A stretch of 32,000 bases of DNA from Ferroglobus placidus DSM 10642 (lineage in GTDB: Archaea; Halobacteriota; Archaeoglobi; Archaeoglobales; Archaeoglobaceae), in contig NC_013849.1 in assembly GCF_000025505.1 (NCBI RefSeq), positions 480,001 through 512,000 on the forward strand, written 5' to 3'. The translations under genes were made by a program, and so were the position numbers. Shown here piece by piece: positions 3,270 to 32,000 of the stretch. Numbering within the stretch: the stretch's first letter is position 1; the number at the start of each line of letters is the position of its first letter. The notes beneath the pieces are model-generated. The model was given only the letters and a program-made list of their open reading frames with translations, did no database searches and had not been told where the DNA came from.

Positions 3270-3797
3270 ATGAGTAAGCGTGGAGGTAGCAGCAGGAAAA
3301 GAAAAAGCAATAATGCACAGCTTGCAGAGAAGGCGTTTCTGTACGCTGAAAAAGCCCCGGTCATAGCGTATCCTGGATGGGAGAGTGCTCTCAACTGTCA
3401 CTTCATGGACCTGATAGCTCACTACAGGATTTGCGAGGCCAGGTGGTGCATAAACAATGAGATCGCAACCGAGTACGAGGCTTTCACATACCTGTACACA
3501 GCTTCCCTGGCCACACCTTTTGACAGGGAGTGGTACAGGATCTACTTCCACCTCTTCAAAAAGTTTTACGGGCACCTGCTGAGCAAAATGGATGACTGGG
3601 ATGAGTGGGATGGAGGAGAGCTGTCTGACTATGAGAAGCAGCTTTTAATAGACCTGAGGAAATGGATATTCAAAAAGCAGATGAGAGTGCTCTCTCAGAT
3701 GCAGAAACAGAGGCAGATGCGGAAGCAGAGGCAGGGCAAAAGTGAGGCAGAACAGGAGAAGGGAGAGGGAGTAGAAACGGGAGAGGTGAGAGAGTGA
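3270..3797 (+). CDS. Hypothetical protein (175 aa) with Q/K/R-rich tail
   Basis: ORF-track 3264..3797 (TTG). ATG 3270 follows GGAGGGTGG. The stop overlaps the GTG start of the RNase H gene. No family recognised. Confidence 0.55.
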   Translation: MSKRGGSSRKRKSNNAQLAEKAFLYAEKAPVIAYPGWESALNCHFMDLIAHYRICEARWCINNEIATEYEAFTYLYTASLATPFDREWYRIYFHLFKKFYGHLLSKMDDWDEWDGGELSDYEKQLLIDLRKWIFKKQMRVLSQMQKQRQMRKQRQGKSEAEQEKGEGVETGEVRE

Positions 3798-11003: not shown

Positions 11004-12911
11004 TCAGAGCAGGTTCATGAACAGAATCCCGGTGATAAGCGTGACTGATAGCATGACAGCAAGCGGAGATGCAATGCGCCTCAGATCACCTCTTGTTGCT
11101 GCAACACCAACTGCCGCGGACATGCTGACTATGTAGCTTGCATGTCTCAGAACCGTTCTCACCTGGTTTATCACAAATGGGCTGATCGAAAATCCAAGGC
11201 TCCTTCCAGATCCTGCTGCAGCTGTTGTAGCCTGCCCGAGCTTCTCGAACTGGCCGAGCAGCATTGCTGAGATTGCAACTGCAATGCCCAGGAAGAGCAG
11301 AGCCGCCAGAACCATCATGCCGCCGTAGGTTTTTGCAACCGAATCCCTCTCCTTCCTGAAAGCATTTAGCCTCATCAGCTCTCCAACAAGGCTTATGAGG
11401 ACCTGCGTAACCCTCCCGCTCACATCAACGGTCTTTGAAAGTATCCTCGCTGCAAGCCTTAAGTCGGTGCTTGGAGTGATTCTGAAAAGCCACTGGAAGG
11501 CCCTGTCCCTCGATATGCCCCTGTCAAGCATCTCGGCAAAAACCTTAACATATTTGCTCAAAGGTGGCCTTGCCTCCTCAGCTGCAAGCTTGAAGGCTGT
11601 TGTCGTGTCCTTCCCAGCCTCAGCGAGGGAGAGGACTCTGTTGAAGTAGAGGGGGAGCTGCGCTGACAGCTTCTCATCCTCCTTAATCCACTTCCTGAGC
11701 ATTACTGCTGATACTGCTGAACCAATTACAGTGAGAGCAAGAGTCCAGAACTCCAGGTTTCCGGGGATGTGGTGGAGGTGGCTTAAGACTCCGAGCAGCA
11801 CTCCGATCAAAGCAGCAGCAGGAATTACTGCGAGCCGCTTTATCCCCGGCCTCTCCACCCCTTTCTCAGGAGATAGACCGTACAGGGCAATGATCAGGGC
11901 AAGGGATGAGAGTGGCATGAATCCATAGACGAGCCCGTAAACCATCGAGATGTCTGCCTGCCCGGCTATGCTCTTGGCGAGCTGTATCGACACAACCATT
12001 GTCGGGATTGCGAGGCTGACGGTGAGGTAAACCTCTGCAATCATCTCAAGCTTCTTCAGATACTCTGTGTACATGATCTTCCTCTCAACCTCCAGGCTTT
12101 CAATCCTCTCCTCCATGTACCTCCCCAGATCACCGCCGGCCTCCATAACACCCACAATACCTCTCAGCAGATCTGCAAGCTTCGCTGACGGAGTTGTTGC
12201 AGCAACCTCAAGCATTGCTGCCTTCAGCGTTGTATTTCCATATCTTACAGCATAATATATTCTTGCGAACTCCTTGGATATCTCACCTAGATCCATTGTA
12301 ACGAGCTCTTTAACGGCCTCCATAATAGAAATGCCTGCCTTTGCAAATCCGAGGAGGGTTATGTAGAGGGTGTGGAGGTTGAAGTCTATGTCCTCTCGCC
12401 TTGATGAGATTTTCCCCTTCAGAGATGCGACGAAGAGGATGGTGAAGATAAAGGGCTGGGAGGTGTAGGCTGTAATTGCATAGATGTAGGGCCTTGTCCA
12501 GTCAGGAATGGGGATCGAGATTGGCAGGGAGAGTATAATGTGACTGCGGAACAGGGTTCCGAGCAGAAATCCGATAACTGCAAGAGTGAGTGCAATGGTG
12601 GAGGAGGCTATGCTTATATTTCTCAGATACTTTTCAGGGAAGAGGATTCCCGCCTTCTTGAAATCATCCCTGTACTCCTCAAGAAGCTGAGGAGGGTACA
12701 TTCCCGGGATGAACAGCCTGAGGGAATCCTTTATCCCTCCCTCCTCCTCCACTCCCTCTATCTTTGCCCCAGCCCTCCGTCTCCTGTGTATTAAAGCCAC
12801 AGCGATTACCGCAACCACCACAACAACTGCGGCAGCGATCACAGCAGTGGAATGCGGGAGCGTATTGAGTCGCAGATTGGACAGCAGATTAGATATGATG
12901 CTCACGTTCAT
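11004..12911 (-). CDS. FlaJ/TadC/PilC-family (T2SS-F) polytopic platform protein
   Basis: 635 aa with many TM helices and two T2SS-F-like cytoplasmic repeats: GISIMEAVKELV..EFARIYYAVRYGNTTLKAAMLEVAATTPSAKLADLLRGIVGVMEAGGDLGRYMEE, and LSLAEAGKDTTTAFKLAAEEARPPLSKYVKVFAEMLDRGISRDRAFQWL. ATG 12911 follows GAGGGGTGATATC. Confidence 0.85.
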   Translation of the reverse strand: MNVSIISNLLSNLRLNTLPHSTAVIAAAVVVVVAVIAVALIHRRRRAGAKIEGVEEEGGIKDSLRLFIPGMYPPQLLEEYRDDFKKAGILFPEKYLRNISIASSTIALTLAVIGFLLGTLFRSHIILSLPISIPIPDWTRPYIYAITAYTSQPFIFTILFVASLKGKISSRREDIDFNLHTLYITLLGFAKAGISIMEAVKELVTMDLGEISKEFARIYYAVRYGNTTLKAAMLEVAATTPSAKLADLLRGIVGVMEAGGDLGRYMEERIESLEVERKIMYTEYLKKLEMIAEVYLTVSLAIPTMVVSIQLAKSIAGQADISMVYGLVYGFMPLSSLALIIALYGLSPEKGVERPGIKRLAVIPAAALIGVLLGVLSHLHHIPGNLEFWTLALTVIGSAVSAVMLRKWIKEDEKLSAQLPLYFNRVLSLAEAGKDTTTAFKLAAEEARPPLSKYVKVFAEMLDRGISRDRAFQWLFRITPSTDLRLAARILSKTVDVSGRVTQVLISLVGELMRLNAFRKERDSVAKTYGGMMVLAALLFLGIAVAISAMLLGQFEKLGQATTAAAGSGRSLGFSISPFVINQVRTVLRHASYIVSMSAAVGVAATRGDLRRIASPLAVMLSVTLITGILFMNLL

Positions 12912-13041: not shown

Positions 13042-14250
13042 TCACCCCTCAATCACAAACGCCACCTCATACGTTGATCCGTCAGGCCGGGTAATGGATG
13101 CAACAACTGTATCCACACCGCCTGCACTCTTCGCAACCACTGAAGCTACTCCAAAATCGTTCGAGTTAACCTTAATAGATGTCCCCGTGTTTTTGCCGTC
13201 AGTAAGTGTTGTGGATGAGTTGAGGCTCGTGAAAGTAACTGTTACACCGGGAACGGGGTTGTTGAAAGTGTCTCTCACTTCAGCAGCGAGGGTTGCCGGA
13301 GTTGTTACAGCCCTTGCTGTGAGCCTGTAGAGGTAGTGATGCTCTGCCCTCTCATCCTCAAATCCCGCAGCCCCCAGTATAAGTTTGTAGGTTACACCTC
13401 TCATGAGCTCTATCACCACGTAGTCTCCCTGCATACTTACAGAGGACACGTAGCTCGAATCTGTGCTGTCAAAGTACTGCTTCCAGAAGTCCAGGGGGAG
13501 GGAGGTTTTTAGGAGGATCGTGATTGGTCTTCCACCTCCAGCATCAGTAACGGCAATCCCCTCCCCGTTACCACCGCTGTAGCAGTAGAGTGTTCCGCTT
13601 ACAGCAACACCGCTCTCGGAGAGGTTGCCCTCAAACATGGGGATGTAAACAGTCCTGCCATCAACAATATTTGTCCCACCAACATAGCTGTACTCCGTCT
13701 TCCCAACAGCAACAGCCCCATACTCCACCCTCGTCTCTCCAGGATCAAAGTAAACGTATGAAGGGATGAAGAGGAGGGACTTGCCGGTCAGAACGATCTC
13801 CCTCCCATTCCACACATCCTGTAAATCAGGATCCACAGCTACTGCATTGCGTATCCTTATCTCAGCTGAATATGTTGAGATTGCACCGGAGAAGGTGTTG
13901 GGTGTTGAGAAGAGGGGGATTGTGGGGTAGCTGCCTCCAAGCGTTAGGGAGTACGATCCGGTTTTGCCCTGAAGAGTAATCCTTTCAACATCACCTGTGA
14001 GGGCGATGAGATCCTTAACAGTCTCTGCAAACTGCCTTGTTTCATAGCTTGAGCAGATCTGCGGAACACCATATACCTGGTAGTAGGTGTACATGGCGGA
14101 GAGGAGCATAAGGACTAAGGCAAAGCCAACGAGTGGAGAAAGGGCTCTGCTGTCTGACAGCAGGTGGGGGTGGGAGTGAGGGGGAGTAGGACTTAGGGTA
14201 GATGTGGGTGTTGTAGTCAGGCTCGCCACCACAGCCACCACACTCACCAC
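13042..14250 (-). CDS. Archaeal prepilin-like secreted protein with C-terminal bacterial Ig-like (Big) domain
   Basis: SDSRALSPLVGFALVLMLLSAMY matches the archaeal pilin N-terminal consensus RAVSPVIG plus a hydrophobic helix. The C-terminus TLAAEVRDTFNNPVPGVTVTFTSLN..GVASVVAKSAGGVDTVVASI fits a Big_1-type fold pattern. GTG 14250 overlaps the ATPase stop by 7 nt. Confidence 0.7.
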   Translation of the reverse strand: MVSVVAVVASLTTTPTSTLSPTPPHSHPHLLSDSRALSPLVGFALVLMLLSAMYTYYQVYGVPQICSSYETRQFAETVKDLIALTGDVERITLQGKTGSYSLTLGGSYPTIPLFSTPNTFSGAISTYSAEIRIRNAVAVDPDLQDVWNGREIVLTGKSLLFIPSYVYFDPGETRVEYGAVAVGKTEYSYVGGTNIVDGRTVYIPMFEGNLSESGVAVSGTLYCYSGGNGEGIAVTDAGGGRPITILLKTSLPLDFWKQYFDSTDSSYVSSVSMQGDYVVIELMRGVTYKLILGAAGFEDERAEHHYLYRLTARAVTTPATLAAEVRDTFNNPVPGVTVTFTSLNSSTTLTDGKNTGTSIKVNSNDFGVASVVAKSAGGVDTVVASITRPDGSTYEVAFVIEG

Positions 14251-17200
14251 CTCTCCTCACCCAGCCCCTCCTGCCTCTCCTGCTCCTCTGACTCCTCCTG
14301 CCCTACCGATGGTACATCCTGCCCTTCTGATTCTGCCCTGTCCTCTGACAGATTATCTCCTTTTCCTCCCTCCCTCTTCCTTCCCTCGATCACACCCTCC
14401 TTCTTCATGTCTCTTATTTTTGTCTTTACAGCGCTGTAGCTCCTGTTGAGCGATTCTGCAATCTCCCGCAGAGGTTTCCCCTGTGTGTAAAGCTCGATCA
14501 GCTCCTGGATTTCCTCATCAGTCCATTTCCTTACACCACTTCCAGCTTCGCTCCTTTCGCTCTCTCCTTCTCTTCTCTCTCCCGCCTCTACTGCCTCTTC
14601 TGTCTCTGTAACCTCTACTGCCTCTTCCGTCTCGGCATCTACTGATCCTGCTCTTCCTGCTTCCTCTACCCCTCCCGTCTCTGCCTCTCCCTCACTTCCT
14701 GTTCCTGCAGCCTCATCCTCTACCCCACCTGCTCCTCCTACTCTATCTACTGCTTCCTGCTGAACAGCACTCACAACACCCTCTTCTTCCTCCATCAATT
14801 CTGACTCCACAGCTCGTAAAATCTCCATCCATTCCTCCTCCTTCTTTTTCTCTTCCTCTCTCTCTTCCTCCCTCATCCTGACTTCACCAATCTCTTCTCT
14901 CCCTACCTCCTCTGATACCTCCACGCCCTCCACTTTCCCTACTTCCTCCACCTTCTCTGACCCCTCTACCTCTTCCTCTTCCTCTGCCTCCCTTACCTCC
15001 TCTGCCTCACCTACATCCAATGTTTCTGCCACTCCTGCCGCTGTTCTCTCCACCTCTTTTACATCTCCCATCTCTCCCCCCTCCCCTACCACACCCTCAT
15101 CCACCTCCCTGCATGCTACTGCCTCGCTCTCGCCCTCCGCTACCCCTACCTCTCTCACCCATGCTGTATCCTCCTCTTTCACCTCTACCTCTCCCTCCGT
15201 CTCCGCCTCTGTCCCTACCTCCTCTGTCCCTACCTCCGACCCAATCTCTGCTTTCCCTACCACTACCTCTGTCCCTACCTCCCCTATCTCTGCTCCCTCA
15301 CCTACCTCTGCTGCCTCTACTCCCTCACCTACCACCTCACCTACCTCTACCCCCGTCCCTACCTCCTCTGTCCCTACCTCTGCTCCAACATCTGCTACCT
15401 CCACTTCCTCGCCTACCTCTGCCTCAGTTACTCTCGCTCCCTCTACCTCTGTCCCTACCACTTCTCCTTCCCGCACTTCCCCTTCTTTACCCTCCCATAC
15501 TTCTCCCTCCCCTGCCTCTTCCTGTCCCTCCTCTCTGTCTCCTTCCGCACCTACCATGCCCTCCAGGCCCTCCAGGTCATCCACACTCAGGCCCTGCAAA
15601 CTCTCCTCACTCCCCACACCCTCTGCAATTTCTGCACTTTCTGCACCAGCAAGCCCCTCTGCACCAGCAAGCTCTGCAGCCTCCACACTGAGCTCAGTTA
15701 TAGATTCAGCAGGCTCGGCAGATTCAGAAGTTGATTCAACTCCTGCCACACCCACAGATTCAGCTACACGCCCTAAATGGATCCTCTCAAAGAACCTTCT
15801 GTAATCTGCCCCCTCCTCCGCAAGCCTCCTGATCAGCCTTGTTCTCCTCTCCAGATCCTTCACAAGCTCCTCCCGTGATCTGCCCGTCCTCTCCGAGATG
15901 CGGTGAAGGATCCCTGAGAGATCGAGTTTCCTGTGCAAATCCCTCGGCCCGTCCCACCGGAAGAGAGGGGTGAGTTTTATGCCCTCCCCTGCCCTCACTC
16001 CCGCTATCTCTCCACCCTCTCCAGCTCCTTCCTCCTCTCCAACCAGCCATATTCCGCTGCACCTTCTGAACACCCTGTCCCCCCTCCTGAAGCTCCCTAC
16101 CACCACAACCAGATCTAAATTCAGAATCATAGCTCTCGGAACAGAGTAGGGAGGGCTCATCAGCCTGTTAATCACAGCCTCAGCACTGCTGCCGTGGACT
16201 GTGGAAAGGCACGTGTGGCCGAGGGCCATTGCCTGGAACATGATTTCAACCTCCTTCCCTCTCACCTCTCCAACTATGATGTACTCAGGCCTCTGTCTCA
16301 GAGCTGCCTTCAGCAGGGCGAACATGTCTATTCTGTCAGTTGCAACCGAGGGGATCCAGTTCTTGTGTGGCAGCAGAACTTCCCTTGTATCCTCTATGGA
16401 CACAACCTTGGAGTGGTATGGTATGAAGAGTGCTGTCGCGTTCATTGCAGTCGTTTTTCCTGCTGCTGTACCTCCAACAAACAGCATCGATCCATTCGAC
16501 TCAAGGCAGAGCCAGAGTAGGGCGAGCTCTTCAGCCGAAAAGGAGTTCCACCTCACAAGATCCACGGGGGTGACAGGAGTTTTCTTCACCTTCCTCACGG
16601 TGAATGTTGATCCGTGATCTGTAACCTCGCTCCTGAATGTCAGCTGAACTCTACTGCCATCATACAGGGTTGTGTCAGCAATTGGGTTTGCCATGCTGAT
16701 CTCAATACCCCTCCGCTGTGCAACAGCCAGAACGAAGTCGTCAAGCTCCTCATTGCTCATCACAATGTTTGTGGGGATGCTCTCGTACAGGCTGTGGTAA
16801 ACAAAGACGGGTTTGTTGTATCCGCTGCAGGATATGTCCTCAATAAACCGGTCCTTGAGGAGGGGGGTTATGCGGCCCGCATAGATACAGTCCCTCTCAA
16901 GGTAGTACCACATCTTTGCGATGGTTTCCAGTTCCAGCTTAAGCTCCTGTTCCGGCTCATGTTCACGTTTGCGTTTGTGTTCACGTTTAGTGGGTAATTC
17001 TGTGAGTATGACTTCCTTGAACGCCTCGAATAAAGTTTCCCTGTCGTCCTCCGAGGCGTGCAGGGGGACCCTTTCAAGCACCCTCTCCTTCAGATCCTGG
17101 AGGAACTCAACCTCCTTATTTGTGAGGTCGGGTTCAAGCAGGGCGTAGAAGTATCCCTTGCCATCTGTAAGGATTTGCGCTGCTGCAAAGGGCATCTCCA

Positions 17201-17330
17201 GCCAGTAGTGCTCAACCTCCCTGTATCCCTCCGGTATATCGGCGGACAGCTTTACATTTACACCTCTCAGATCCTCCATTGTAAAGTCAGGTACCTCTTT
17301 CTTTCGGCGGAAGGGAAGTGGAAATTTCAT
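14244..17330 (-). CDS. FlaI/PilB/VirB11-family secretion ATPase fused to an acidic low-complexity region and a C-terminal Myb/GcrA-like HTH
   Basis: aa 1-520 carry the family motifs: YALLEPDLTNKE (FlaI-type N-domain), Walker A GGTAAGKTT (aa 286-294), SIEDTREV (Asp box), EYIIVGEVRG (Walker B) and HTCLSTVHG (His box).
aa 523-932 are E/G/V/A-rich low complexity.
aa 934-980 read RKWTDEEIQELIELYTQGKPLREIAESLNRSYSAVKTKIRDMKKEG.
The ATG 17330 start appears leaderless, 20 nt downstream of AAAGTTATATAC. Confidence 0.9.
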   Translation of the reverse strand: MKFPLPFRRKKEVPDFTMEDLRGVNVKLSADIPEGYREVEHYWLEMPFAAAQILTDGKGYFYALLEPDLTNKEVEFLQDLKERVLERVPLHASEDDRETLFEAFKEVILTELPTKREHKRKREHEPEQELKLELETIAKMWYYLERDCIYAGRITPLLKDRFIEDISCSGYNKPVFVYHSLYESIPTNIVMSNEELDDFVLAVAQRRGIEISMANPIADTTLYDGSRVQLTFRSEVTDHGSTFTVRKVKKTPVTPVDLVRWNSFSAEELALLWLCLESNGSMLFVGGTAAGKTTAMNATALFIPYHSKVVSIEDTREVLLPHKNWIPSVATDRIDMFALLKAALRQRPEYIIVGEVRGKEVEIMFQAMALGHTCLSTVHGSSAEAVINRLMSPPYSVPRAMILNLDLVVVVGSFRRGDRVFRRCSGIWLVGEEEGAGEGGEIAGVRAGEGIKLTPLFRWDGPRDLHRKLDLSGILHRISERTGRSREELVKDLERRTRLIRRLAEEGADYRRFFERIHLGRVAESVGVAGVESTSESAEPAESITELSVEAAELAGAEGLAGAESAEIAEGVGSEESLQGLSVDDLEGLEGMVGAEGDREEGQEEAGEGEVWEGKEGEVREGEVVGTEVEGARVTEAEVGEEVEVADVGAEVGTEEVGTGVEVGEVVGEGVEAAEVGEGAEIGEVGTEVVVGKAEIGSEVGTEEVGTEAETEGEVEVKEEDTAWVREVGVAEGESEAVACREVDEGVVGEGGEMGDVKEVERTAAGVAETLDVGEAEEVREAEEEEEVEGSEKVEEVGKVEGVEVSEEVGREEIGEVRMREEEREEEKKKEEEWMEILRAVESELMEEEEGVVSAVQQEAVDRVGGAGGVEDEAAGTGSEGEAETGGVEEAGRAGSVDAETEEAVEVTETEEAVEAGERREGESERSEAGSGVRKWTDEEIQELIELYTQGKPLREIAESLNRSYSAVKTKIRDMKKEGVIEGRKREGGKGDNLSEDRAESEGQDVPSVGQEESEEQERQEGLGEERW
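14427..14531 (-). repeat. HTH-module copy 1 (one arm of a 105-nt inverted duplication)
   Basis: The reverse complement matches 17825-17929 at 89 of 105 nt in a codon-by-codon count. A perfect 32-nt core lies at 14440-14471. Confidence 0.85.
14535..15764 (-). repeat. Imperfect tandem/low-complexity coding repeats (acidic E/G/V/A region)
   Basis: The + strand is roughly 80 percent pyrimidine over about 1.2 kb by eye, with recurring cctctgtccctacctcc units (EVGTE-type peptide repeats on the - strand). It produces the spurious P/L-rich antisense ORF 15020..15691. Confidence 0.8.
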
Positions 17331-20787: not shown

Positions 20788-20952
20788 CTATTTTAAAACC
20801 CTCCATACCCTCACAACCTCTGCCTTGGCTGGCTTTCCTTCAACAAAAATTTCTATAGCTCTATGCTTTCCCGTTTGGTGGATTAGCCTTGGCTTTGACA
20901 CCTTTCTGCCAACACACCTGATCTTCTCCCCTTCAATCCTCTGGTTCGACAT
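20788..20952 (-). CDS. Small ORF (54 aa) overlapping the 3' end of the RHH gene; possible toxin-like partner or remnant
   Basis: ATG 20952 overlaps the RHH gene by 20 nt. Product: MSNQRIEGEKIRCVGRKVSKPRLIHQTGKHRAIEIFVEGKPAKAEVVRVWRVLK. It falls below the ORF-track cut-off. No family recognised. Confidence 0.2.
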   Translation of the reverse strand: MSNQRIEGEKIRCVGRKVSKPRLIHQTGKHRAIEIFVEGKPAKAEVVRVWRVLK

Positions 20953-21253
20953 ATCCCTCCTCCCACAGCTCCAAAAGAATGTCGTTCACAAGGCTGAGAT
21001 CAATTCTCAATGCATCGGCAATTTCATCAGCCCGGATTCTCTCCTTTCCCGTGATAAATTCAATAATTTCCCTCTTTGCCTGTTCTCTCGGGATGTCTCT
21101 GAGTTCAACCACCTCAAGCCCCCTCAGTTCCTCAGCGTAATGCCTGATTGCCTCTCTGATTGCCTCAGCCTTGGATATCTTCAGTTTTTTAATGATGATG
21201 TCGAGTTCTTTCTCAACTTCCGTTAAGTCCACGGGATAAACATACCTCTGCAT
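20933..21253 (-). CDS. Ribbon-helix-helix (CopG/antitoxin-like) plus winged-HTH DNA-binding protein
   Basis: ORF-track 20933..21298, trimmed to ATG 21253. That start lies about 24 nt downstream of TTTTTATACC (21273-21282), so the mRNA is probably leaderless. The RHH part is VDLTEVEKELDIIIKKLKISKAEAIREAIRHY. The wHTH-like part is ADEIADALRIDLSLVNDILLELWEEGYVE. Confidence 0.7.
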   Translation of the reverse strand: MQRYVYPVDLTEVEKELDIIIKKLKISKAEAIREAIRHYAEELRGLEVVELRDIPREQAKREIIEFITGKERIRADEIADALRIDLSLVNDILLELWEEGYVEPED

Positions 21254-21596
21254 GGTATAAGTCGTATAGATTGGTATAAAAACTTGTTGGTTTGACAATT
21301 TGTTTTGGTGCTTTTATTTTTCTACAAGTTAATTAAAAATTCTCAAACTAAATCAAAGAAGTGCAATTACTGTGAGGTGCGGAAACTCTGTTAGAGCTGC
21401 GAAATGCCTCAAATACGGTTAGAAGTCCTGTATTATTTAGACCCAATATATCTAAAGTTCAAACTAAATATCTGCCCTATTTTCTTTGATAGTTCTGCTT
21501 TCCATTAGATAATGGATTTCAGGAATAAAAATTGCATTATCGCTGTTCTTCTGCTTCTCGAACTACTTTGAAGGGATATATTGGCAGATATAGCTG

Positions 21597-22914: not shown

Positions 22915-24777
22915 TCAGTAGCACATCCCACTAATTTTTGGTATAAGCTCCTCGAATGCTGCCACTATCTCAACTTCCTTCCTCGTTTTGAGGAGGTTGA
23001 CCATGTACTCCACAAAATCATTCACAACCTCAGGGTCCTTCACGGGGAACCTGTCCTTGTCCCTTTTCAGGTTCAGCATCCTGATCACCTCATCCCTTCC
23101 TTCCTTCAAAAGCGTGCACACTATCTCCTTCGAAAGCTTCTTTGAAAGTATGCCAGCCTCCATGAACTCCCTCAGCCTTGCAATGTCTCCTGCTTCAACG
23201 CTAATTTTCTCCACCTCAGCAGATTTCACAGCAGCCCTGATCTCAACTGCAAGCTCTTCTCCTGCAGACATAAGCTCGCCCACAACCTCTCCGTACCTCC
23301 TGAGTATCAGCATCTCTCCCTCTCTGACAAGCAACAGCGGTTCCGGATGTATGCTCAGCCCCATGAAGTCGACAAAGCCTGGCTTGAAGTCAATGATTGC
23401 CCTGCCCTCTCTTTCTCCATCCATGCCCGCTCTTCCTCCCCATCCAAGGTCAGCCTCTTCCCCTCTCTCAGGAATGGATTTCCTGACCTTTGGCAGTCTT
23501 GCAAGCAGGTTTCTGGCAGCCTCCTCCTCTCCGTGAACGATGTATATCCTCCTCGGATAGTAGTCCATCCCCTCAACAAAGCCAACCAGCCCATCCTCAT
23601 CTGCGTGGGCTGAGAATGCACTAACATTCACAACATTGCACCTCACATCCACCTCATCACCATTCACGTACACAAGCTTATTTCCATCAACTATCTGCCT
23701 GCCAAGTGTCCCCTCCGCCTGATAGCCAACAAACAGGACTGTTGAGTTCTCATCCTGCAATATGTAAGGCAGGTGGTTCAGGACTCTCCCTCCCTCAAGC
23801 ATTCCGGATGCTGAGAGGATTATGCACGGCTCATTACTCTTAGCCAGCTCCCTGCTCCTGTTGTATGTTGTTACATACTCAAGCCCCTCAAACTCTATCG
23901 GGTTTTTCCCCCTCAGGAACAGCTCGTAAAACTCTTTTCTGAGCATGTTGCTGTAGCTTTTGTAGATATCCGTTACTCTGCTGCCAAGCGGTGTGTCGAG
24001 ATAAACCTTTACCCTGATTTTGTCCCTGAGATTCCTCAGAACATACAGGACCTCCTGCGCCCTTCCAACGGCAAACACTGGAATCAATACTTTACCACCG
24101 GCCTTTATCGTGTCGCTTATCACAGCCTTCATGGTTTCCACAGCTTTTGCCCTGTCCTCATGCCTTCTGTTCCCGTATGTTGACTCCATTATCAGCACAT
24201 CCGCCTCTTTTGGTGGGGTGGGAGGGTTCATGAGTGGAGAGGTGCCTGAACCTATGTCTCCAGTATAGCAGATTTGCAACCCGTTGATTCTGAGCAGTGT
24301 GACTGCAGAGCCAAGGATGTGGCCCGCATCGAGGAAGCTGAGCTTCACATCCTGCAGCCTTACGGGTTTGTTGTAGGGATAGGCGTCGAAATGAGACATC
24401 ACCTCAACAACATCCCTCTCATCAAAAAGGGGCGGGATGTTGCTTTTTTCGTACTCCTCCTTCATAATTTTTGCAGAATCAAGCAAGAGCAGCTCGGCTA
24501 TCGCCCTTGTTGCGGTTGTTGTTACAACCCTCCCCCTGAACCCCCTGAGGTAGAGGTAGGGGATCAGCCCTGAGTGGTCGATGTGGGCGTGGCTGAGTAT
24601 AATGTAGTCAATCTCGGATGGATCGAATGGGATGTGTTTTTCCCGCTCCACAGAATCAACTCCCTGCCTCATTCCACAGTCCAGCAGGATCTTCGTTTTA
24701 CCCGTATCAAGCAGGTGCATCGATCCGGTGACTTCCCTGCATGCTCCCAGAAATCTGATTTTAACCACACTCACCAC
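22915..24777 (-). CDS. Metallo-beta-lactamase / beta-CASP nuclease (CPSF/RNase J superfamily) with an unrecognised 175-aa C-terminal extension
   Basis: Motifs: FLGACREVTGS, LLDCG, HAHIDHSG (HxHxDH), DAGHILGSA, YTGDIG, ESTYG, beta-CASP IPVFAVGRAQE, SAFSAHAD and IVHGE. The canonical fold ends near aa 445 (..IPERGEEADLG). aa 446-620 (nt 22918-23442) have no motif I recognise. The start is GTG 24777 or 24768, after AGAGGTGGTGA. Confidence 0.85.
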   Translation of the reverse strand: MVSVVKIRFLGACREVTGSMHLLDTGKTKILLDCGMRQGVDSVEREKHIPFDPSEIDYIILSHAHIDHSGLIPYLYLRGFRGRVVTTTATRAIAELLLLDSAKIMKEEYEKSNIPPLFDERDVVEVMSHFDAYPYNKPVRLQDVKLSFLDAGHILGSAVTLLRINGLQICYTGDIGSGTSPLMNPPTPPKEADVLIMESTYGNRRHEDRAKAVETMKAVISDTIKAGGKVLIPVFAVGRAQEVLYVLRNLRDKIRVKVYLDTPLGSRVTDIYKSYSNMLRKEFYELFLRGKNPIEFEGLEYVTTYNRSRELAKSNEPCIILSASGMLEGGRVLNHLPYILQDENSTVLFVGYQAEGTLGRQIVDGNKLVYVNGDEVDVRCNVVNVSAFSAHADEDGLVGFVEGMDYYPRRIYIVHGEEEAARNLLARLPKVRKSIPERGEEADLGWGGRAGMDGEREGRAIIDFKPGFVDFMGLSIHPEPLLLVREGEMLILRRYGEVVGELMSAGEELAVEIRAAVKSAEVEKISVEAGDIARLREFMEAGILSKKLSKEIVCTLLKEGRDEVIRMLNLKRDKDRFPVKDPEVVNDFVEYMVNLLKTRKEVEIVAAFEELIPKISGMCY

Positions 24778-24910
24778 CTCTTTACCTCATACTCCTCGCT
24801 ACCTATCCCCAATCTCATCTCTCAACCCAATATCTTCCCGGCATCTTTATGGCTTTGTGGGAGCCATATCCACATGCATCCAGAACATCCAGGCATACAT
24901 CCAGCATGGC

Positions 24911-24930
24911 TGAAAAGAACAAAAACAAAG
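24911..24930 (-). terminator. Oligo-T tract directly after the Cas5-like RAMP gene
   Basis: The minus strand reads CTTTGTTTTTGTTCTTTTCA immediately after the stop at 24931-24933. A 153-nt gap separates the RAMP gene from the beta-CASP start. Confidence 0.4.
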
Positions 24931-25923
24931 CTAAACAACCACAAACTCTCCCTTTCCAAAGCTTGTTTTAGCCCCTATACCCCTAAGCTCGGCGATGGCA
25001 AGGCATTCGTAGAAAATCTCCGGCGGTTTTTCTGCAAACTCAACCTGCACCTTTGCCCCGGCAGGAATTGCCATGTCCTTCATAATCCTGTTCTTTCCCC
25101 CGTTTGGTGTCACCTTTCTGTGGAGCGACAAAACCGTTCTGGGGGGCAGGCATTCCTTCTTAACCCCCACAAATGGATCCTCATAGCTTTCATAATCCGG
25201 GTGGAAGTGCCTTCCGGCATTCTTCACCCCCGTGAGGATAGTCTCTCCCGTAAGCTCCCCGATGAAGTCGGAGATGAAGTGAAGGGTTAGCCTGTCCTTT
25301 CTTTCCAGCTCTCTTTCCAGCTCTCTTGCCCTCCTCCTGATATCCTCCAGCCTTATCATCCTGTAGTTCAGCCTGTCAATCCTGAAGTGCCCCTTCCCCT
25401 TTCCGCTCCTCCTCCCCAGCTTCAGCCCGTTCTCCTCTATCAGCTCCATTACTGCAACAAATTCCTCAGCATAATCCTCCCCCCTCCTCATATTAAGTAC
25501 AGCCTTAAACCTGTAGCTGTATCCGCGCGTAACCGCTTCAAGTCTGAAGGCCGACGTTTTTCCGGTCTTTCTGTCAACCCTCGTCTGGATGATTGTGCCT
25601 TTTCTGGTAGGATGCTTTAAAACCTGGCCGCATGTGCTGCACTTAAAGTTCTGAAACTTCTCAGCCACAAAGGGTAGAAGGAGTCCTCCGTCAGCATGAA
25701 GGGGAATTGCATCCTTGAAGTAGATTAGCGCTGCATTCTCGTCCAAAAAGCTCTTGCTCAATCCAGCATTAACATGCAGGAGTTCATACCCAACACTCCC
25801 CCTTATGTGCTGTCCCTGCGGATAGGGGTGGGTGGTGGAAAGTCCGTGTTTCTTGAAACCAGTTCCAAGGTGGTACTCGGTGATGTTGGTGATCACACCC
25901 TCAGCCACAAGAGCCACCTTCAT
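24931..25923 (-). CDS. Two-domain RAMP protein, Cas5 group-like (Csm4/Cmr3/Csf3-like) with a Zn-knuckle insert
   Basis: 330 aa. Motifs: N-terminal ITEYHLGTG..YPQGQHIRGSVGYELL, FKDAIPL, the insert FKCSTCGQ, VDRKTGKTSAFRLEAVTRGYSYRF, a first G-rich loop LGRRSGKGKGHFRI, and a second, terminal G-rich loop GIGAKTSFGKGEFVVV. ATG 25923 follows GAGGAGAGAGGT. Confidence 0.65.
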   Translation of the reverse strand: MKVALVAEGVITNITEYHLGTGFKKHGLSTTHPYPQGQHIRGSVGYELLHVNAGLSKSFLDENAALIYFKDAIPLHADGGLLLPFVAEKFQNFKCSTCGQVLKHPTRKGTIIQTRVDRKTGKTSAFRLEAVTRGYSYRFKAVLNMRRGEDYAEEFVAVMELIEENGLKLGRRSGKGKGHFRIDRLNYRMIRLEDIRRRARELERELERKDRLTLHFISDFIGELTGETILTGVKNAGRHFHPDYESYEDPFVGVKKECLPPRTVLSLHRKVTPNGGKNRIMKDMAIPAGAKVQVEFAEKPPEIFYECLAIAELRGIGAKTSFGKGEFVVV

Positions 25924-25988
25924 ACCTCTCTCCTCACGTTGCCCTCGCCTTTACCTCGCCTGCTTTTTTACTTCCCTGCTACAGCCTG

Positions 25989-26600
25989 CTACAGCTTTTC
26001 AAGGATGTTTCTGGCCTGCTTGAGGAAGTCCGTCCACTCCCTCTCCTGAATACTGAAATCTACCTTCACCCTTCCTCTTCCTCTCGTAACCCATCCCCCA
26101 ATTCCGAACTCCTCTATTGCCTTCAATCCAGCAACAATTAATTCCTTATCCCTCGGCTTCGGATCCACAACCCTTATTTTCCCCGTGAACACCGCTCCCT
26201 CCTCGATCTCCTCAATTTTGAGGGTGTTCGACACCACCCCATCCTCCCTGCTGATTCTGAGGTGCACTGATGGATGGACAATCTCCTTGTAAGATCTCTC
26301 AGAGACAAGGTCATCAATAATTGCTCTCCCCTTCTTCCCCAGAGATCCAAAGAGATCGCAGAGAACACATCTCCCGCATGGCTTTGCATCCTTCATCCCG
26401 GTATCACATACATTCTCGCCGTTCTCCCTCAGAATTCTCTCCAGATACCCCCTCAAAGCACCGTATATGGGGATTGCAACTCTCCCGTCCCCTGTTATTC
26501 TTGCAAGCTTTATATCTGCCTTCCTGTCCATTTTAATTTCTCCTGTCACTGCTGGCAAGGTTGTTGTGGCCTTTATATCGAACACCAGATACTTATTCAC
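25989..26600 (-). CDS. RAMP protein, Cas7 group-like (Csm3/Cmr4/Csf2-like)
   Basis: ORF-track 25989..26621, trimmed to GTG 26600, 3 nt after GGGGGTGAT. Signature order: YLVFDIKATTTLPAVTG, IPIYGALRGYLE (compare IPGSSxKGxxR), CGRCVLCDLFGS (compare CxxCxLFG), TLKIEEIEEGAVFTGKIRV, and GIGGWVTRGRGRVKV (G-rich loop). Confidence 0.75.
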   Translation of the reverse strand: MNKYLVFDIKATTTLPAVTGEIKMDRKADIKLARITGDGRVAIPIYGALRGYLERILRENGENVCDTGMKDAKPCGRCVLCDLFGSLGKKGRAIIDDLVSERSYKEIVHPSVHLRISREDGVVSNTLKIEEIEEGAVFTGKIRVVDPKPRDKELIVAGLKAIEEFGIGGWVTRGRGRVKVDFSIQEREWTDFLKQARNILEKL

Positions 26601-26637
26601 ACCATCACCCCCTACTCTCAAAAATACTCCTCACCAT

Positions 26638-26647
26638 TATTTAAATA
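26638..26647 (-). promoter_or_regulatory. TATA box of the RAMP gene pair
   Basis: TATTTAAATA is centred about 43 nt upstream of GTG 26600. That is consistent with a short SD-containing leader. It lies between the last degenerate repeat and the Cas7-like gene. Confidence 0.5.
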
Positions 26648-26680
26648 GTTTGCGTATATGTGTATAGTATCCTAAAGTCT

Positions 26681-26921
26681 TTGGATTCACTCTCCTTTGC
26701 AGCGTTATAGTGGTGAGCGAACCCGTCGATACGTTAGAATGTGGATTCATATCATCGTCTTCATCCTCTTTTGCAACCTCAGTGATGGTAGGAAGCTTCC
26801 AGAAAGCACAATTCTGTGGACTCGTATCATTGTCCTATCTCCCTTTGCAATTCTTGTGTATGAAGCAGCATACGACATCATAGAGTGGATTCGTATCATC
26901 ATCCTCATCTCCCTCTGCAAC
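26681..26921 (-). CRISPR. Degenerate mini-array: 4 repeats (~37 nt) and 3 spacers (33/38/37 nt)
   Basis: + strand units:
- R3 26885-26921 gtggattcgtatcatcatcctcatctccctctgcaac
- R2 26816-26851 gtggactcgtatcattgtcctatctccctttgcaat
- R1 26741-26777 gtggattcatatcatcgtcttcatcctcttttgcaac
- R0 26681-26703 ttggattcactctcctttgcagc (internal ~14-nt deletion)
The period is 69-75 bp. Decay increases away from the TATA-bearing AT-rich side at 26922-27024, so the array is probably transcribed on the - strand, like the RAMP genes. Confidence 0.5.
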
Positions 26922-26986
26922 CCCTACCATATATCTCTGTTTCTGTTTAAATACCTATATCCTTTCTCCTTCATAGCCAGAAGTGT

Positions 26987-27024
26987 GAAGTCCTCAAAAT
27001 GGGTTTAAGTATTTAAAGGACTTC
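26987..27024 (-). promoter_or_regulatory. 38-bp palindrome-flanked TATA element, copy B (putative leader promoter/operator of the mini-array)
   Basis: The minus strand reads GAAGTCCT-ttaaatacttaaacccattttg-AGGACTTC. The first repeat (R3) starts 65 nt downstream. A second TATA-like TATTTAAAC lies at about 26946-26954. Confidence 0.5.
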
Positions 27025-27135
27025 AAATCGAATCTGAGCAATTATGAGGTTTCTCTCAAGCAATCCGCCGGACATGGTTGCATATTACAATTTATTTATA
27101 CCTGAGGCCCGCCTGAAACAGATTTAACCTATCGC

Positions 27136-27447
27136 TCAGCCGCCACATGCAGCCACCAACAGGTTGTTGACAACCACCACAGTGTAGAGGATGACAAGCG
27201 CTGCAAGAATTGTAAGCAGGAAACCCGATCTCTCCCATTCATCCAGAAACTCCAGACCGCTCACAGCTCCCACACCCATGAGGAGAAAGAAGATGGAGGC
27301 GCAAAGCTTGCAGTTGGCGAATAGGCCGCTATCCATAACATCCCTCATGACTGGGTTCAGCTCGAACGCTCCGCTGGAGACGGCAAACACTGTTGTCAGG
27401 TAGTCCAGCGTGTTCAGTATTGAAAGCAGGATAAGGAGTAATGACAT
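27136..27447 (-). CDS. Small 3-4 TM membrane protein, DUF5658-like
   Basis: From ATG 27447: MSLLLILLSILNTLDYLTTVFAVSSGAFELNPVMRDVM..FANCKLCASIFFLL... The LDxxTT...G..E.NP pattern fits that family, as I recall it. The ORF-track start at 27591 would add a 48-aa Gly/Pro/Asn-rich N-terminus. Confidence 0.55.
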   Translation of the reverse strand: MSLLLILLSILNTLDYLTTVFAVSSGAFELNPVMRDVMDSGLFANCKLCASIFFLLMGVGAVSGLEFLDEWERSGFLLTILAALVILYTVVVVNNLLVAACGG

Positions 27448-27635
27448 CGTGTACCTTGGCCCGAGTCCGGGTTTGGGTTTAAGCCTCAGTCCTGGTCTCG
27501 GTATCGGCAGCAGTATCGGCGGCAGTTTCAGATTTCTGTCGCCGTTACCGTTGCTGTTGCGGTTACAATCTTTCCCATCTCCATCCACCACGCAATACCC
27601 TCCATTCAGCGTTCTGTAGCACCACTACACCCTCA

Positions 27636-30167: not shown

Positions 30168-30326
30168 ATTACACTATAGGTTATATTATGATAAAGCTTT
30201 CTGTTGTTGCTTGATTGGTGGTTAGAGGAGAATATGGGAAGAAGTGTCATGGCATAGATAAACAGTTAAAAACTGTGGTTTTACTTATAGTGTAAGAAAA
30301 AAGAGTGTTTTGAAATGCAAATTATC

Positions 30327-30400
30327 TGGACCGGTGGGGATTTGAACCCCAGGCCTCCGCCATGCCAAGGCGGCGCTCTTCCAGGCTGAGCTACCGGCCC
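30327..30400 (-). tRNA. tRNA-Ala (anticodon GGC), no encoded CCA
   Basis: The reverse complement is GGGCCGGTAGCTCAGCCTGGAAGAGCGCCGCCTTGGCATGGCGGAGGCCTGGGGTTCAAATCCCCACCGGTCCA. It folds as a 74-nt cloverleaf: 7-bp acceptor stem with G3:U70 (the Ala identity pair), D arm GCTC/GAGC, anticodon stem CCGCC/GGCGG, loop TTGGCAT, and T arm TGGGG-TTCAAAT-CCCCA. Confidence 0.95.
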
Positions 30401-30496
30401 AAGTGATTGTAATTTATCTAACTCCATGAGCTTATAAGGTTTATGGACAAGAGAAAAACATATTTTTCAAAGCAATAACCCTTTCACTGTTGCCCT

Positions 30497-32000
30497 ATGA
30501 GAGGCGAAGTGGGGAAAATTGTCGGAGAAGCGACGCCTTATGAGTTCAGCTTTCAAATCTACAACCCTCTCGAAGTGAAGAAAGGAGATTTCGTGAAAGT
30601 TTGGAACGACGCTGACGGATGGTTTGCGGCTTACGTTTCTGAAATAAAGGCTGTTTCAAAAAGCGATGAGAGAGATGGAAGTGAAACTTATCTGGCTAAA
30701 GCAGTAGTCCTCGGAAAGAGAAGTGGAAAGAGCATAATTTTGCCGAAGACGCCTTTCGTTCCCGGAGATAGGGTTTTTAAAGCTGAGGAGGATTTCGTTG
30801 CTGAATGCTTGGGATTTTACGAAGACGGCGTTTACTTGGGATACCTTGGGGATACGAAAATAAGAGTAACCCTAAACCCCAACACTCTCGTTCAAAAGCA
30901 CGTTTGCATTTTGGCAAAAACGGGAAGCGGAAAAAGTTACACGGCAGCAGTAATAATCGAGGAACTGCTCGAGAAAGACGTGGCTCTCCTGATAATAGAT
31001 CCCCACGGAGAATACGAGAGCTTAAAGTATCCGAACGATGACGAAAGCCTCGAGGAGTTTGGTTTAAAACCGAAGGGTTACGCTGACAAAGTCAGGATGT
31101 TCGTTCCTCCTAAATCTCCGTTAGCTGACAAAGCCGACGGCATTCTAAGGCTCGACGGAATAAATCTATCTGCTGAAGAAATAATTGAAATGGGAGAAAT
31201 TAGAAAATCCTCGGCTCAGGCAGCTATCTACCAGTTAATACGGGAGATGAGGGGAAGGACTTACACGATTCAAGATTTGATAGATGAAGCTGAACAACTA
31301 AGCGGGAATCTCAAAGCTGAGATAATTGGAGCTTTAACTAAGATCGAAGAGACTGAACTTTTCAGCGAAAATCCAACGCCTATAGATGTCTTAATGCAGA
31401 AGGGGAAGGCAGTGATTTTAAATTTAGCCGGAGTAGATCCAGTTCATCAGGACATAATCGTGGCTAAGGTTTGCAGGGAGATATTTGAGATGAGGAAAAG
31501 GGGAGAGATAGATCCGGGGATGATCGTTGTCGATGAAGCTCATAACTTCGTTCCGGAGAAAGGAATTGACAAATCTGTTTCTTCGAGCATCCTCAGAACT
31601 ATAGCGAGCGAGGGAAGGAAGTTCGCTTTAGGACTTATGATAATTAGCCAGAGACCTGCAAGGATAGACAAAAACGTTCTCAGCCAGTGCAACACCCAGA
31701 TAATCCTTAGAGTTACGAATCCCAACGATATAAACTCGATAAAGAGGGGGGTTGAAGGGATAACCTCGGAAATGGTGGAAGAAATAAAAAGATTACCCGT
31801 CGGACATGCTCTCGTGATCACTCCCGACTTAGAGAGGCCGGTAATAGTTAGAGTTAGAACGAGAAAGAGCAAGCACAAAGAGGCTGAAGAGATAATTAAA
31901 TTTGAAAAGAAAAAAGCGAAGAAAGAAGAGAAAAGAAAGGACAGCCCGAAAAAGGAAATAAAGGAAAAGAAAGGGGGATTTTTCAAAAAGCTTTTCGGTG
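30497..32000 (+). CDS. HerA-type (DUF87/FtsK-HerA superfamily) ATPase, 3' end beyond the window
   Basis: The frame is open from ATG 30497 to the window end, so it is absent from the ORF track. It has an N-terminal HAS-barrel-like segment (GKIVGEATPYEFSFQIYNPLEVKKGDFVKVW), Walker A ILAKTGSGKSY, Walker B MIVVDEAHNF, and LMIISQRPARIDKNVLSQCNTQIILRVTNPND. The tail is Lys-rich. Antisense ORF 31540..31986 is a shadow. Confidence 0.85.
   Translation, partial: MRGEVGKIVGEATPYEFSFQIYNPLEVKKGDFVKVWNDADGWFAAYVSEIKAVSKSDERDGSETYLAKAVVLGKRSGKSIILPKTPFVPGDRVFKAEEDFVAECLGFYEDGVYLGYLGDTKIRVTLNPNTLVQKHVCILAKTGSGKSYTAAVIIEELLEKDVALLIIDPHGEYESLKYPNDDESLEEFGLKPKGYADKVRMFVPPKSPLADKADGILRLDGINLSAEEIIEMGEIRKSSAQAAIYQLIREMRGRTYTIQDLIDEAEQLSGNLKAEIIGALTKIEETELFSENPTPIDVLMQKGKAVILNLAGVDPVHQDIIVAKVCREIFEMRKRGEIDPGMIVVDEAHNFVPEKGIDKSVSSSILRTIASEGRKFALGLMIISQRPARIDKNVLSQCNTQIILRVTNPNDINSIKRGVEGITSEMVEEIKRLPVGHALVITPDLERPVIVRVRTRKSKHKEAEEIIKFEKKKAKKEEKRKDSPKKEIKEKKGGFFKKLFG

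What the first reader, a model, noticed from the sequence alone, without database searches (positions are those of the whole stretch)
22915..27024. Cas10-less RAMP pair (Cas7-like plus Cas5-like) behind its own degenerate mini-array, next to a beta-CASP nuclease with a novel C-terminal domain
Seen in sequence:
- Two adjacent minus-strand genes carry clear RAMP signatures. 25989..26600 has the Csm3/Cmr4/Csf2 motif order: IPIYGALRGYLE, CGRCVLCDLFGS, GIGGWVTRGRGRV.
- 24931..25923 has two RAMP halves, each closed by a G-rich loop, plus IRGSVGYELL and FKDAIPL as in the Cas5-group proteins Csm4/Cmr3/Csf3.
- Directly upstream on the same strand lies a 4-repeat/3-spacer array with its own leader-like promoter.
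- The 32-kb window contains no Cas10 or other large subunit, Cas11, Cas6, Cas1/Cas2, HD nuclease or helicase.
- The next gene downstream on the same strand is a beta-CASP nuclease carrying an extra 175 aa after the canonical fold.

Interpretation:
- A bare Cas7+Cas5 backbone with a tiny array is reminiscent of the reduced type IV or type III derivatives carried by mobile elements.
- I know of no described subtype that combines such a backbone with a beta-CASP nuclease, or with the upstream DUF5658-like and 843-aa membrane proteins.
- It could be a minimal RNA-guided module that recruits the beta-CASP enzyme, a decaying type III fragment, or a module that depends on host Cas proteins encoded elsewhere.

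Caveat: an oligo-T tract and a 153-nt gap separate the RAMP genes from the nuclease gene. The nuclease together with htpX may simply be housekeeping neighbours.
Basis: partly seen in the sequence, partly recalled or inferred. Interest (0 to 1): 0.85.

Follow-up and report, generated by a model that had tools for sequence, protein, structure and literature searches.

The report
Type VII CRISPR-Cas locus, already catalogued

Summary
Window 22915-26921 (minus strand) carries a mini CRISPR array (three full repeats and one truncated repeat, three spacers), then cas7, cas5 and a 620-aa beta-CASP nuclease gene.

The nuclease is Cas14, the signature protein of type VII CRISPR-Cas. It scores 1031.8 bits against NCBIfam NF045584 (cut-off 800), end to end. 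All metal-binding residues are intact. Its "novel" C-terminal part is Cas14's known middle and C-terminal domains, shown by profile and fold matches to solved Cas14 structures.

The two RAMPs match the solved type VII Cas7 (E 2e-46) and Cas5 (E 2e-11). Cas7, cas5 and cas14 are linked in eight other loci, always with different neighbours. So htpX, DUF5658 and the 843-aa protein are bystanders.

Exact protein matches place the window in Ferroglobus placidus DSM 10642. The 2025 CRISPR classification names this genome as the only complete one with a type VII system. Verdict: already known, low interest.

One side result may be new. Repeats of all Cas6-less type VII loci examined, including this one, share a covarying hairpin with a near-invariant AUGAUAnGA loop. 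It looks like a box C / K-turn motif and is absent from the Cas6-dependent system studied experimentally.

The parts
26922..27135 (-). Leader region between the DUF5658 gene stop and repeat 1. It contains a TATA-like box TATTTAAA at 26953-26946.
   Evidence: Read from the sequence. The promoter function is inferred, not tested.
26681..26921 (-). Mini CRISPR array. R1 26921-26885, S1 26884-26852/51, R2 26851-26816, S2 26815-26778, R3 26777-26741, S3 26740-26704, and a truncated, degenerate R4 26703-26681. The repeats end in a hairpin (GGAU/AUCC, GGAC/GUCC) around the loop nAUGAUAnGA.
   Evidence: The same three spacers occur in independent assemblies of the organism.
25989..26600 (-). cas7, the type VII backbone subunit. 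It is 203 aa from the GTG at 26600; the mechanical ORF starts at 26621.
   Evidence: Pfam RAMPs E 6.5e-12. PDB type VII Cas7 E 1.9e-46, 46.5% identity. 42 homologues, with four invariant Cys.
24931..25923 (-). cas5, long form (330 aa). An N-terminal RAMP domain is followed by a 138-aa second RAMP-like domain that ends in the G-rich loop GIGAKTSFGKGEF.
   Evidence: PDB type VII Cas5 E 2.4e-11, or 1.1e-16 with a profile, covering aa 33-192 only. The family is about 25 clusters among 1.84 billion representatives.
24778..24930 (-). Intergenic gap between cas5 and cas14, with a T-rich tract (CTTTGTTTTTGTTCTTTTC) just after the cas5 stop.
   Evidence: Gaps or arrays between cas5 and cas14 also occur in related loci. 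A terminator function is inferred.
22915..24777 (-). cas14, the type VII effector: a beta-CASP/MBL RNase (about aa 1-440) plus a middle linker domain and a helical C-terminal domain (about aa 460-620). An alternative start lies at 24768.
   Evidence: NCBIfam NF045584 1031.8 bits, cut-off 800. Catalytic H63 H65 D67 H68 H153 D174 are invariant. The clade profile aligns PDB Cas14 residues 2-556 of 609. AF2 pLDDT 84.8; best fold match is Cas14 9j9e over the full length, E 1e-47.

Best explanation
This is the type VII CRISPR-Cas locus of Ferroglobus placidus DSM 10642.

Inferred by homology to the characterised system:
- The mini-array is transcribed from the leader and cut into crRNAs.
- Cas5 caps the repeat-derived 5' handle, and about seven catalytically inert Cas7 subunits polymerise along the spacer.
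- When a complementary RNA pairs with the crRNA, a Cas14 tetramer docks on the Cas7 backbone through its C-terminal domains.
- The zinc-dependent beta-CASP domain of Cas14 then cuts the target RNA.

Shown here:
- The identity and completeness of the three proteins.
- Intact Cas14 catalytic residues.
- A cognate array on the same strand.
- Conserved gene linkage in other loci.
- The source organism.

Still unknown:
- No Cas6 is encoded in the locus, so how the pre-crRNA is processed is not known.
- The targets of the three spacers are not known.
For: Protein identity:
- Cas14 passes the curated NCBIfam equivalog cut-off end to end.
- All three proteins find the chains of the solved type VII complex as their best PDB match.
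- The Cas14 model matches solved Cas14 over its full length, whereas other beta-CASP enzymes match only about 450 columns.
- The catalytic residues correspond to H62/H64/D66/H67/H148/D169 of the studied enzyme.

Genomic context:
- Cas7, cas5 and cas14 are linked in L001-L006, L010-L012 and L041, with unrelated flanks.
- The window's repeats carry the same core and hairpin as the arrays of those loci.

Match to the published description:
- The lack of an adaptation module and the degenerate repeats fit the published description of type VII.
- The flanking proteins are exact matches to F. placidus.
- That genome is named as the only complete genome with type VII.
- WP_012965105, the gene next to htpX (WP_012965104), is listed in Altae-Tran Table S5.
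Against: - Activity is not shown for this locus.
- The array has only three spacers and a truncated last repeat. R3's hairpin pairs at only 2 of 4 positions.
- No protospacer was found.
- The characterised system differs in several ways. It has Cas6, a short 240-aa Cas5 and an unrelated repeat. It shares only 40% (Cas14), 46.5% (Cas7) and 25.6% (Cas5) identity with this locus. Details of crRNA maturation and handle recognition may therefore not transfer.
- A T-rich tract and a 153-nt gap separate cas5 from cas14, so the genes may not be co-transcribed.
Confidence: 0.93

Rival explanations
1. An inactive relic. The genes are type VII by descent, but the locus no longer functions as guided interference: it has a fixed three-spacer array, a degenerate last repeat, and neither Cas6 nor an adaptation module.
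For: - The array is tiny and identical in independent assemblies, one of them 99.66% identical over 4.1 kb.
- R4 is truncated.
- No targets were found.
- A related orphan cas7 beside a transposase shows that such loci do decay.
Against: - All three ORFs are intact.
- The Cas14 catalytic residues and the conserved Cas7/Cas5 residues are retained.
- The hairpin loop is intact in R1-R3.
- Small degenerate arrays without adaptation genes are the norm for type VII.
Confidence: 0.08
2. A fragment of a type III system. The RAMPs would be Csm/Cmr subunits separated from Cas10 by a rearrangement, and the nuclease an unrelated neighbour.
For: - Both RAMPs give weak hits to Csm3/Csm4/III-D profiles.
- F. 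placidus does carry a separate minimal Cas10-containing module elsewhere.
Against: - Scores to the type III profiles are far below their cut-offs (24 against 90 bits for Csm3). Matches to type VII Cas7 and Cas5 are much stronger.
- The nuclease carries the Cas7-docking CTD.
- The three-gene set recurs without Cas10 in many loci.
Confidence: 0.02
3. Housekeeping neighbours. The beta-CASP enzyme would be an aCPSF-type RNA-processing factor paired with htpX, unrelated to the RAMPs.
For: - The N-terminal 430 aa resemble aCPSF1/FttA and TTHA0252.
- A gap and a T-tract precede the gene.
Against: - The score is below the aCPSF1 cut-off and the KH domains are missing (alignment starts at model position 174).
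- The full length matches only Cas14.
- htpX is absent from all related loci.
Confidence: 0.01

Closest known systems
Type VII CRISPR-Cas of metagenomic contig Ga0116245_10002768 (Altae-Tran et al. 2023, PMC10910872; structures 8YHD/8YHE/8Z4J/8Z4L/8Z99/8Z9C/8Z9E/9J9E)
   Same: - The same three effector proteins: Cas14 (beta-CASP NTD + MLD + CTD), Cas7 and Cas5.
- The same catalytic residues.
- No Cas10/Cas11 and no adaptation genes.
- Best sequence and fold matches for all three window proteins.
   Different: - That system encodes Cas6 and a short 240-aa Cas5. Its 30-nt repeat, GTTTAAGTCCCATATGGTGGGGTTAAAACT, is a classic hairpin repeat.
- The window has no Cas6, a 330-aa Cas5 with a full second domain, and 36-37-nt degenerate repeats with an AUGAUAnGA-loop hairpin.
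- Gene order here is array-cas7-cas5-cas14.
- Identity is only 40% / 46.5% / 25.6%.
Cas6-less type VII loci in metagenomes and MAGs (L001/L002, whose Cas7 is named Thermococcus sp. by NCBI; L003/L004; L005/L006 Lokiarchaeota; L011; L041)
   Same: - A long Cas5 and no Cas6.
- Arrays on the cas strand with the ATGATAnGA core and a covarying stem.
- Degenerate repeats.
- L001, L003 and L005 share the window's gene order.
   Different: - Their arrays are larger (8-33 repeats). Most lie downstream of cas14, or between cas14 and cas7.
- Cas14 identity to the window is 39-58%.
Type III-D CRISPR-Cas (Csm3-like Cas7, Csx10-like Cas5)
   Same: RAMP folds, and distant profile similarity of both RAMPs. 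The literature derives type VII from type III.
   Different: There is no Cas10 and no Cas11. Target cleavage is by Cas14, not Cas7. Scores lie far below the type III family cut-offs.
Stand-alone beta-CASP RNases (TTHA0252, aCPSF1/FttA, CPSF73)
   Same: The MBL and beta-CASP fold and the zinc ligands of the N-terminal 430 aa.
   Different: They lack the MLD and CTD that dock on Cas7. aCPSF1 has N-terminal KH domains, which are absent here.

Membership tests
Type VII CRISPR-Cas | Signature protein Cas14: a beta-CASP/MBL nuclease fused to a middle domain and a Cas10-CTD-like C-terminal domain | tested here: met
   NF045584 scores 1031.8 bits against a cut-off of 800, aligning aa 5-614 to model positions 1-612. 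The clade profile aligns PDB Cas14 residues 2-556. The Foldseek best hit is Cas14 9j9e over 643 columns, E 1e-47.
Type VII CRISPR-Cas | Intact zinc-binding and catalytic residues of Cas14 (H62 H64 D66 H67 H148 D169 in the studied enzyme) | tested here: met
   H63 H65 D67 H68 H153 D174, plus H391 and H415, are present and invariant in 29 clade members.
Type VII CRISPR-Cas | A type VII Cas7 encoded next to cas14 | tested here: met
   PDB Cas7 E 1.9e-46, 46.5% identity. The gene is adjacent and on the same strand.
Type VII CRISPR-Cas | Cas7 lacks the catalytic Asp of type III Cas7 | tested here: inconclusive
   The loop is four residues shorter than in the solved Cas7. By a naive register, D36 lies where Csm3 has its Asp. 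The column varies (D/E/K/S/N) across the family, which argues against a catalytic role. No structural superposition was done.
Type VII CRISPR-Cas | A type VII Cas5 encoded in the module | tested here: met
   PDB Cas5 E 2.4e-11, or 1.1e-16 with a profile, over the N-terminal RAMP domain. The C-terminal domain is longer than in the solved protein. The AF2 model was too poor to compare.
Type VII CRISPR-Cas | No Cas10/Cas11 and no adaptation module in the locus; an adjacent array with degenerate repeats | tested here: met
   No such genes were found in the 32 kb. The array has three diverged repeats and one truncated repeat. This fits the published description.
Type VII CRISPR-Cas | crRNA-guided cleavage of target RNA by Cas14 | not testable with these tools
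   Shown only for the Ga0116245 system.
Type III CRISPR-Cas | Cas10 large subunit | tested here: not met
   No Cas10 is present in the window. The RAMP scores are below the type III cut-offs.
Type IV CRISPR-Cas | Csf1 large subunit with Csf2/Csf3 (and DinG or CysH) | tested here: not met
   Csf2 scores E 0.0065, 15.7 bits, against a cut-off of 130. No Csf1 or DinG is present.
aCPSF1/FttA housekeeping beta-CASP RNase | N-terminal KH domains and a score above the TIGR03675 cut-off | tested here: not met
   366 bits against a cut-off of 580.2. The alignment starts at model position 174, so there are no KH domains.
K-turn / box C/D-like RNA motif (for the repeat hairpin) | A helix, a 3-nt bulge, and tandem sheared G.A/A.G pairs bound by L7Ae | not testable with these tools
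   The sequence pattern stem-nAU-GA-UAn-GA-stem fits on paper. The only Rfam hints are C/D-box models at E 2-5, which is not significant. The non-canonical helix is replaced by a triloop, unlike a standard K-turn or K-loop.

The most novel reading that the evidence does not exclude
The Cas6-less type VII loci, including this F. placidus locus, may be a distinct variant.
- Their repeats carry a conserved, covarying 4-bp hairpin with a near-invariant loop nAUGAUAnGA, which is box C / K-turn-like.
- The hairpin sits 2-3 nt before the spacer.
- It would replace the Cas6-type repeat hairpin and direct a Cas6-independent route of crRNA maturation or Cas5 handle recognition.
- That route could involve a host K-turn binder such as L7Ae.
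- No paper held in the library links type VII to such a motif.
Probability: 0.25. Interest if true: 0.6.

Novelty: already known. Interest (0 to 1): 0.17.

Why it matters
For the finding as stated, very little is new. Type VII CRISPR-Cas was described in 2023, has cryo-EM structures and a curated NCBI model, and this genome is cited as its only complete-genome example.

Two points still have value:
- A reader working from raw sequence alone inferred the right mechanism (a Cas7/Cas5 backbone recruiting a beta-CASP nuclease), which validates the scan.
- F. placidus is a cultured hyperthermophile, so this is the one type VII locus that could be studied in its native host.

The Cas6-less form found here seems common among the natural type VII loci sampled. 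It differs from the only form studied biochemically in its repeat architecture and its Cas5 size. How it makes crRNAs is open, and the conserved repeat hairpin gives a concrete handle on that question.

Tried and rejected
- **Related loci by single protein.** A single-protein scan of genome contigs for Cas14 relatives found nothing. Related loci came instead from protein homologues and their contigs.
- **Other arrays with this repeat.** Searching the repeat core RGAYRATGATAYGARTCCAC gave only single hits: 8 in genomes and 18 in metagenomes. None had type VII genes or multiple cores, so they are chance matches. The source genome did not appear, so its region is apparently masked.
- **Spacer targets.** No significant match in phage or plasmid records, IMG/VR, or the window and fetched loci.
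- **Cas5 structure.** AF2 on a 6-sequence alignment gave pLDDT 45.8, which is unusable, so no fold search was run.
- **Long Cas5 as a Cas6 substitute.** Rejected as a simple rule, because L012 has both a long Cas5 and Cas6.
- **Module as a strain-variable cassette.** This was suggested because a Logan contig ends exactly at R1 and at htpX. Rejected, because other assemblies also start at R1 but run on through htpX to dsbA.
- **Conserved extra gene in L001.** The 166-aa ORF between cas5 and cas14 has no homologue in the window or other loci and contains repeat-like cores.
- **Sigma-70 promoter/terminator scanner.** Not used, because the organism is an archaeon.


Full report
**What is in the sequence**

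On the minus strand, downstream of a DUF5658 gene (27136-27591), lies a 214-nt leader. It carries a TATA-like TATTTAAA 32 nt before the first repeat.

An array follows: R1 26921-26885, R2 26851-26816, R3 26777-26741 and a truncated R4 26703-26681. The spacers are 34, 38 and 37 nt. The full repeat is expected 0 times by chance.

Three genes follow the array:
- A 203-aa RAMP gene (25989-26600).
- A 330-aa RAMP gene (24931-25923).
- After a 153-nt gap with a T-rich tract, a 620-aa beta-CASP gene (22915-24777).

One correction is that a HerA-type helicase gene begins at 30497 and runs off the window.

**What it is**

The beta-CASP protein scores 1031.8 bits against NCBIfam NF045584, 'type VII CRISPR-associated protein Cas14'. 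The curated cut-off is 800, and aa 5-614 align to model positions 1-612. By contrast it scores 366 bits against aCPSF1, whose cut-off is 580, and it lacks the KH region.

In the PDB, the best matches of all three proteins are the chains of the solved type VII complex:
- Cas14 8yhd_H, E 2.5e-92.
- Cas7, E 1.9e-46.
- Cas5, E 2.4e-11.

A profile of 29 full-length clade members aligns solved Cas14 from residue 2 to 556 of 609, E 1e-144.

An AlphaFold model (pLDDT 84.8) finds Cas14 of 9j9e as its best fold match over the whole length, E 1e-47. TTHA0252, CPSF73 and aCPSF1 cover only the nuclease part.

The metal ligands H63, H65, D67, H68, H153 and D174 are invariant. They correspond to H62/H64/D66/H67/H148/D169 of the studied enzyme.

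**Context test**

- In L001/L002, L003/L004 and L005/L006 the order is cas7-cas5-cas14.
- In L010, L011, L012 and L041 the order is cas14-cas7-cas5.
- In every case the flanking genes are different.
- None has htpX, DUF5658 or the 843-aa membrane protein. Those genes are bystanders.
- No other cas gene was found in the 32 kb.

**Source and prior knowledge**

Ten flanking proteins are exact matches to Ferroglobus placidus DSM 10642. Examples are HtpX WP_012965104 and DUF5658 Ferp_0590.

[quoted passage not shown] WP_012965105, the accession next to HtpX, is listed in Altae-Tran Table S5.

Type VII is defined as follows:
- Cas14 plus Cas7 plus Cas5, and sometimes Cas6.
- No adaptation genes.
- Arrays whose repeats carry many substitutions.
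- RNA as the target, with spacers matching mainly transposons.

The published mechanism is that Cas5 caps the 5' handle, seven inactive Cas7 subunits line the crRNA, and a Cas14 tetramer docks by its CTDs and cuts the bound RNA. The locus is therefore already known.

According to the literature, F. placidus also has six arrays, a I-A system and a minimal Cas10-containing module elsewhere. Cas6 and Cas1/Cas2 therefore exist in trans. I could not read that part of the genome.

**How this locus differs from the studied one**

| Feature | Studied system (Ga0116245_10002768 = the PDB entries) | This window |
|---|---|---|
| Cas6 | present | absent |
| Cas5 | 240 aa | 330 aa |
| Repeat | 30 nt, GTTTAAGTCCCATATGGTGGGGTTAAAACT | 36-37 nt, degenerate |

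- In the window's Cas5, only aa 33-192 align to the solved Cas5. The remaining 138 aa form a second RAMP-like domain with a G-rich loop.
- Identity to the studied proteins is 40% for Cas14, 46.5% for Cas7 and 25.6% for Cas5.
- A full HMMER scan shows a small Cas5 family with long (about 300-370 aa) and short (about 240 aa) forms.
- The long form is not simply a Cas6 substitute, because L012 has both.

**A side result on the repeats**

All eight loci fetched that show no cas6 are the window, L001, L003, L005, L011, L039, L040 and L041; L039 and L040 are truncated contigs. In all of them the repeats lie on the cas strand and contain ATGATAnGA close to their 3' end.

With relaxed detection there are 124 repeats. 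GAUA is invariant in 124 of 124. The flanking A, U, G and A are conserved at 96-99%. The 'n' position is free.

The four bases on either side are complementary and covary between loci:

| Locus | 5' arm / 3' arm |
|---|---|
| Window R1 | GGAU / AUCC |
| Window R2 | GGAC / GUCC |
| L001 | GAAC / GUUC |
| L003 | UGGC / GUCA |
| L011, L040, L041 | CAAC / GUUG |
| L005 | AUUC / GAAU |

On 63 distinct sequences, 84.1% of cells pair, against 60.6% in shuffles (0 of 500 shuffles reach the observed value). The covariation score is 0.605 against 0.208. Controls with the partner column slid give 20-47% paired. All four pairs show changes on both sides.

The two arrays seen in Cas6-bearing systems (L012 and the studied system) lack the motif. 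No array was found in the fetched stretch of L010, which also has Cas6.

The loop reads stem-nAU-GA-UAn-GA-stem. On paper this is a helix, a 3-nt bulge and tandem G.A pairs, with AUGAUA close to box C (RUGAUGA). The only Rfam hints at R1 are C/D-box models at E 2-5, which is not significant. No held paper links type VII with K-turns or L7Ae.

I treat the hairpin as a well-supported conserved RNA element of unknown role. I treat the K-turn reading as an untested lead.

**Limits**

- No protospacer was found.
- The repeat core found no other array in the public collections, only chance single hits. The source region seems to be masked there.
- The Cas5 model was unusable.
- Whether Cas7 D36 matters is unresolved.

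**Verdict**

This is a new description of a catalogued type VII locus, so interest is low. The modest exception is the repeat hairpin of the Cas6-less variant.

Noticed in passing
window 26741-26921 (-); L001 6900-9300; L003 10000-13200; L005 9900-10750; L011 2500-9750; L039 2950-3300; L040 7900-9397; L041 2500-3400: Repeats of all type VII loci examined that show no cas6 share a covarying 4-bp hairpin with a near-invariant loop nAUGAUAnGA, 2-3 nt before the spacer. The motif is absent from the two arrays seen in Cas6-bearing type VII systems. It looks like a box C / K-turn motif.
   Followed up: partly
window 24931-25923 (-): Type VII Cas5 exists in a long form (about 300-370 aa, as here, with a full second RAMP-like domain) and a short form (about 240 aa, as in the solved structure). 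The long form co-occurs with Cas6 in L012, so it is not a simple Cas6 replacement.
   Followed up: partly
window 25989-26600 (-), Cas7 residue D36: Cas7 has an Asp five residues before the invariant R41. By a naive register, this is where Csm3 carries its catalytic Asp. The column is not conserved in the family (D/E/K/S/N). Four Cys (C72, C82, C85, C88) are invariant, suggesting a zinc site.
   Followed up: partly
window 30326-30401 (-) and 30497-32000 (+): A tRNA-Ala(GGC) gene sits next to a divergently oriented HerA-type helicase gene (HAS barrel + DUF87 + HerA_C) that runs off the window end. It is not seen in other type VII loci.
   Followed up: partly
window 2257-3318, 11004-12911, 13042-14250, 14244-17330 (all -): An archaeal type IV pilus-like cluster: a pilin-like protein with a lamin-tail domain, T2SSF, an Ig-like protein, and a 1028-aa T2SSE ATPase. 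The ATPase carries a roughly 450-aa acidic E/G/V-rich low-complexity insert and a C-terminal HTH. This insert explains the extreme GC skew at 14-16 kb.
   Followed up: no
window 20933-21298 (-): A small RHH + winged-HTH protein just beyond htpX gives weak PADLOC hits to the wHTH part of CasR/Csa3 (E 1.7e-4). This is probably generic wHTH similarity rather than a CRISPR regulator.
   Followed up: no
L001 3939-4644: The called 166-aa 'gene' between cas5 and cas14 has no family hit and no homologue in the other loci. The region contains repeat-like cores ATGATAnGA at 4025, 4373 and 4502, so it is probably a degenerate mini-array miscalled as an ORF.
   Followed up: partly
L008 8001-11079: An orphan cas7 (74% identical to the window's) has no cas5 or cas14 and lies next to a DDE transposase. 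It appears to be a decayed type VII locus.
   Followed up: no
L007, L042, L043 (window 26920 downward): Independent Logan assemblies of this organism all begin at the first repeat (window 26920) and carry the same three spacers. One contig is 99.66% identical with 14 substitutions. The shared start looks like an assembly break, not a cassette boundary.
   Followed up: yes
Genome contigs and metagenome-contig scans: The degenerate repeat-core pattern did not retrieve the source F. placidus region itself. The window therefore seems to be masked in the genome collection, and the absence of other arrays there is weak evidence.
   Followed up: no
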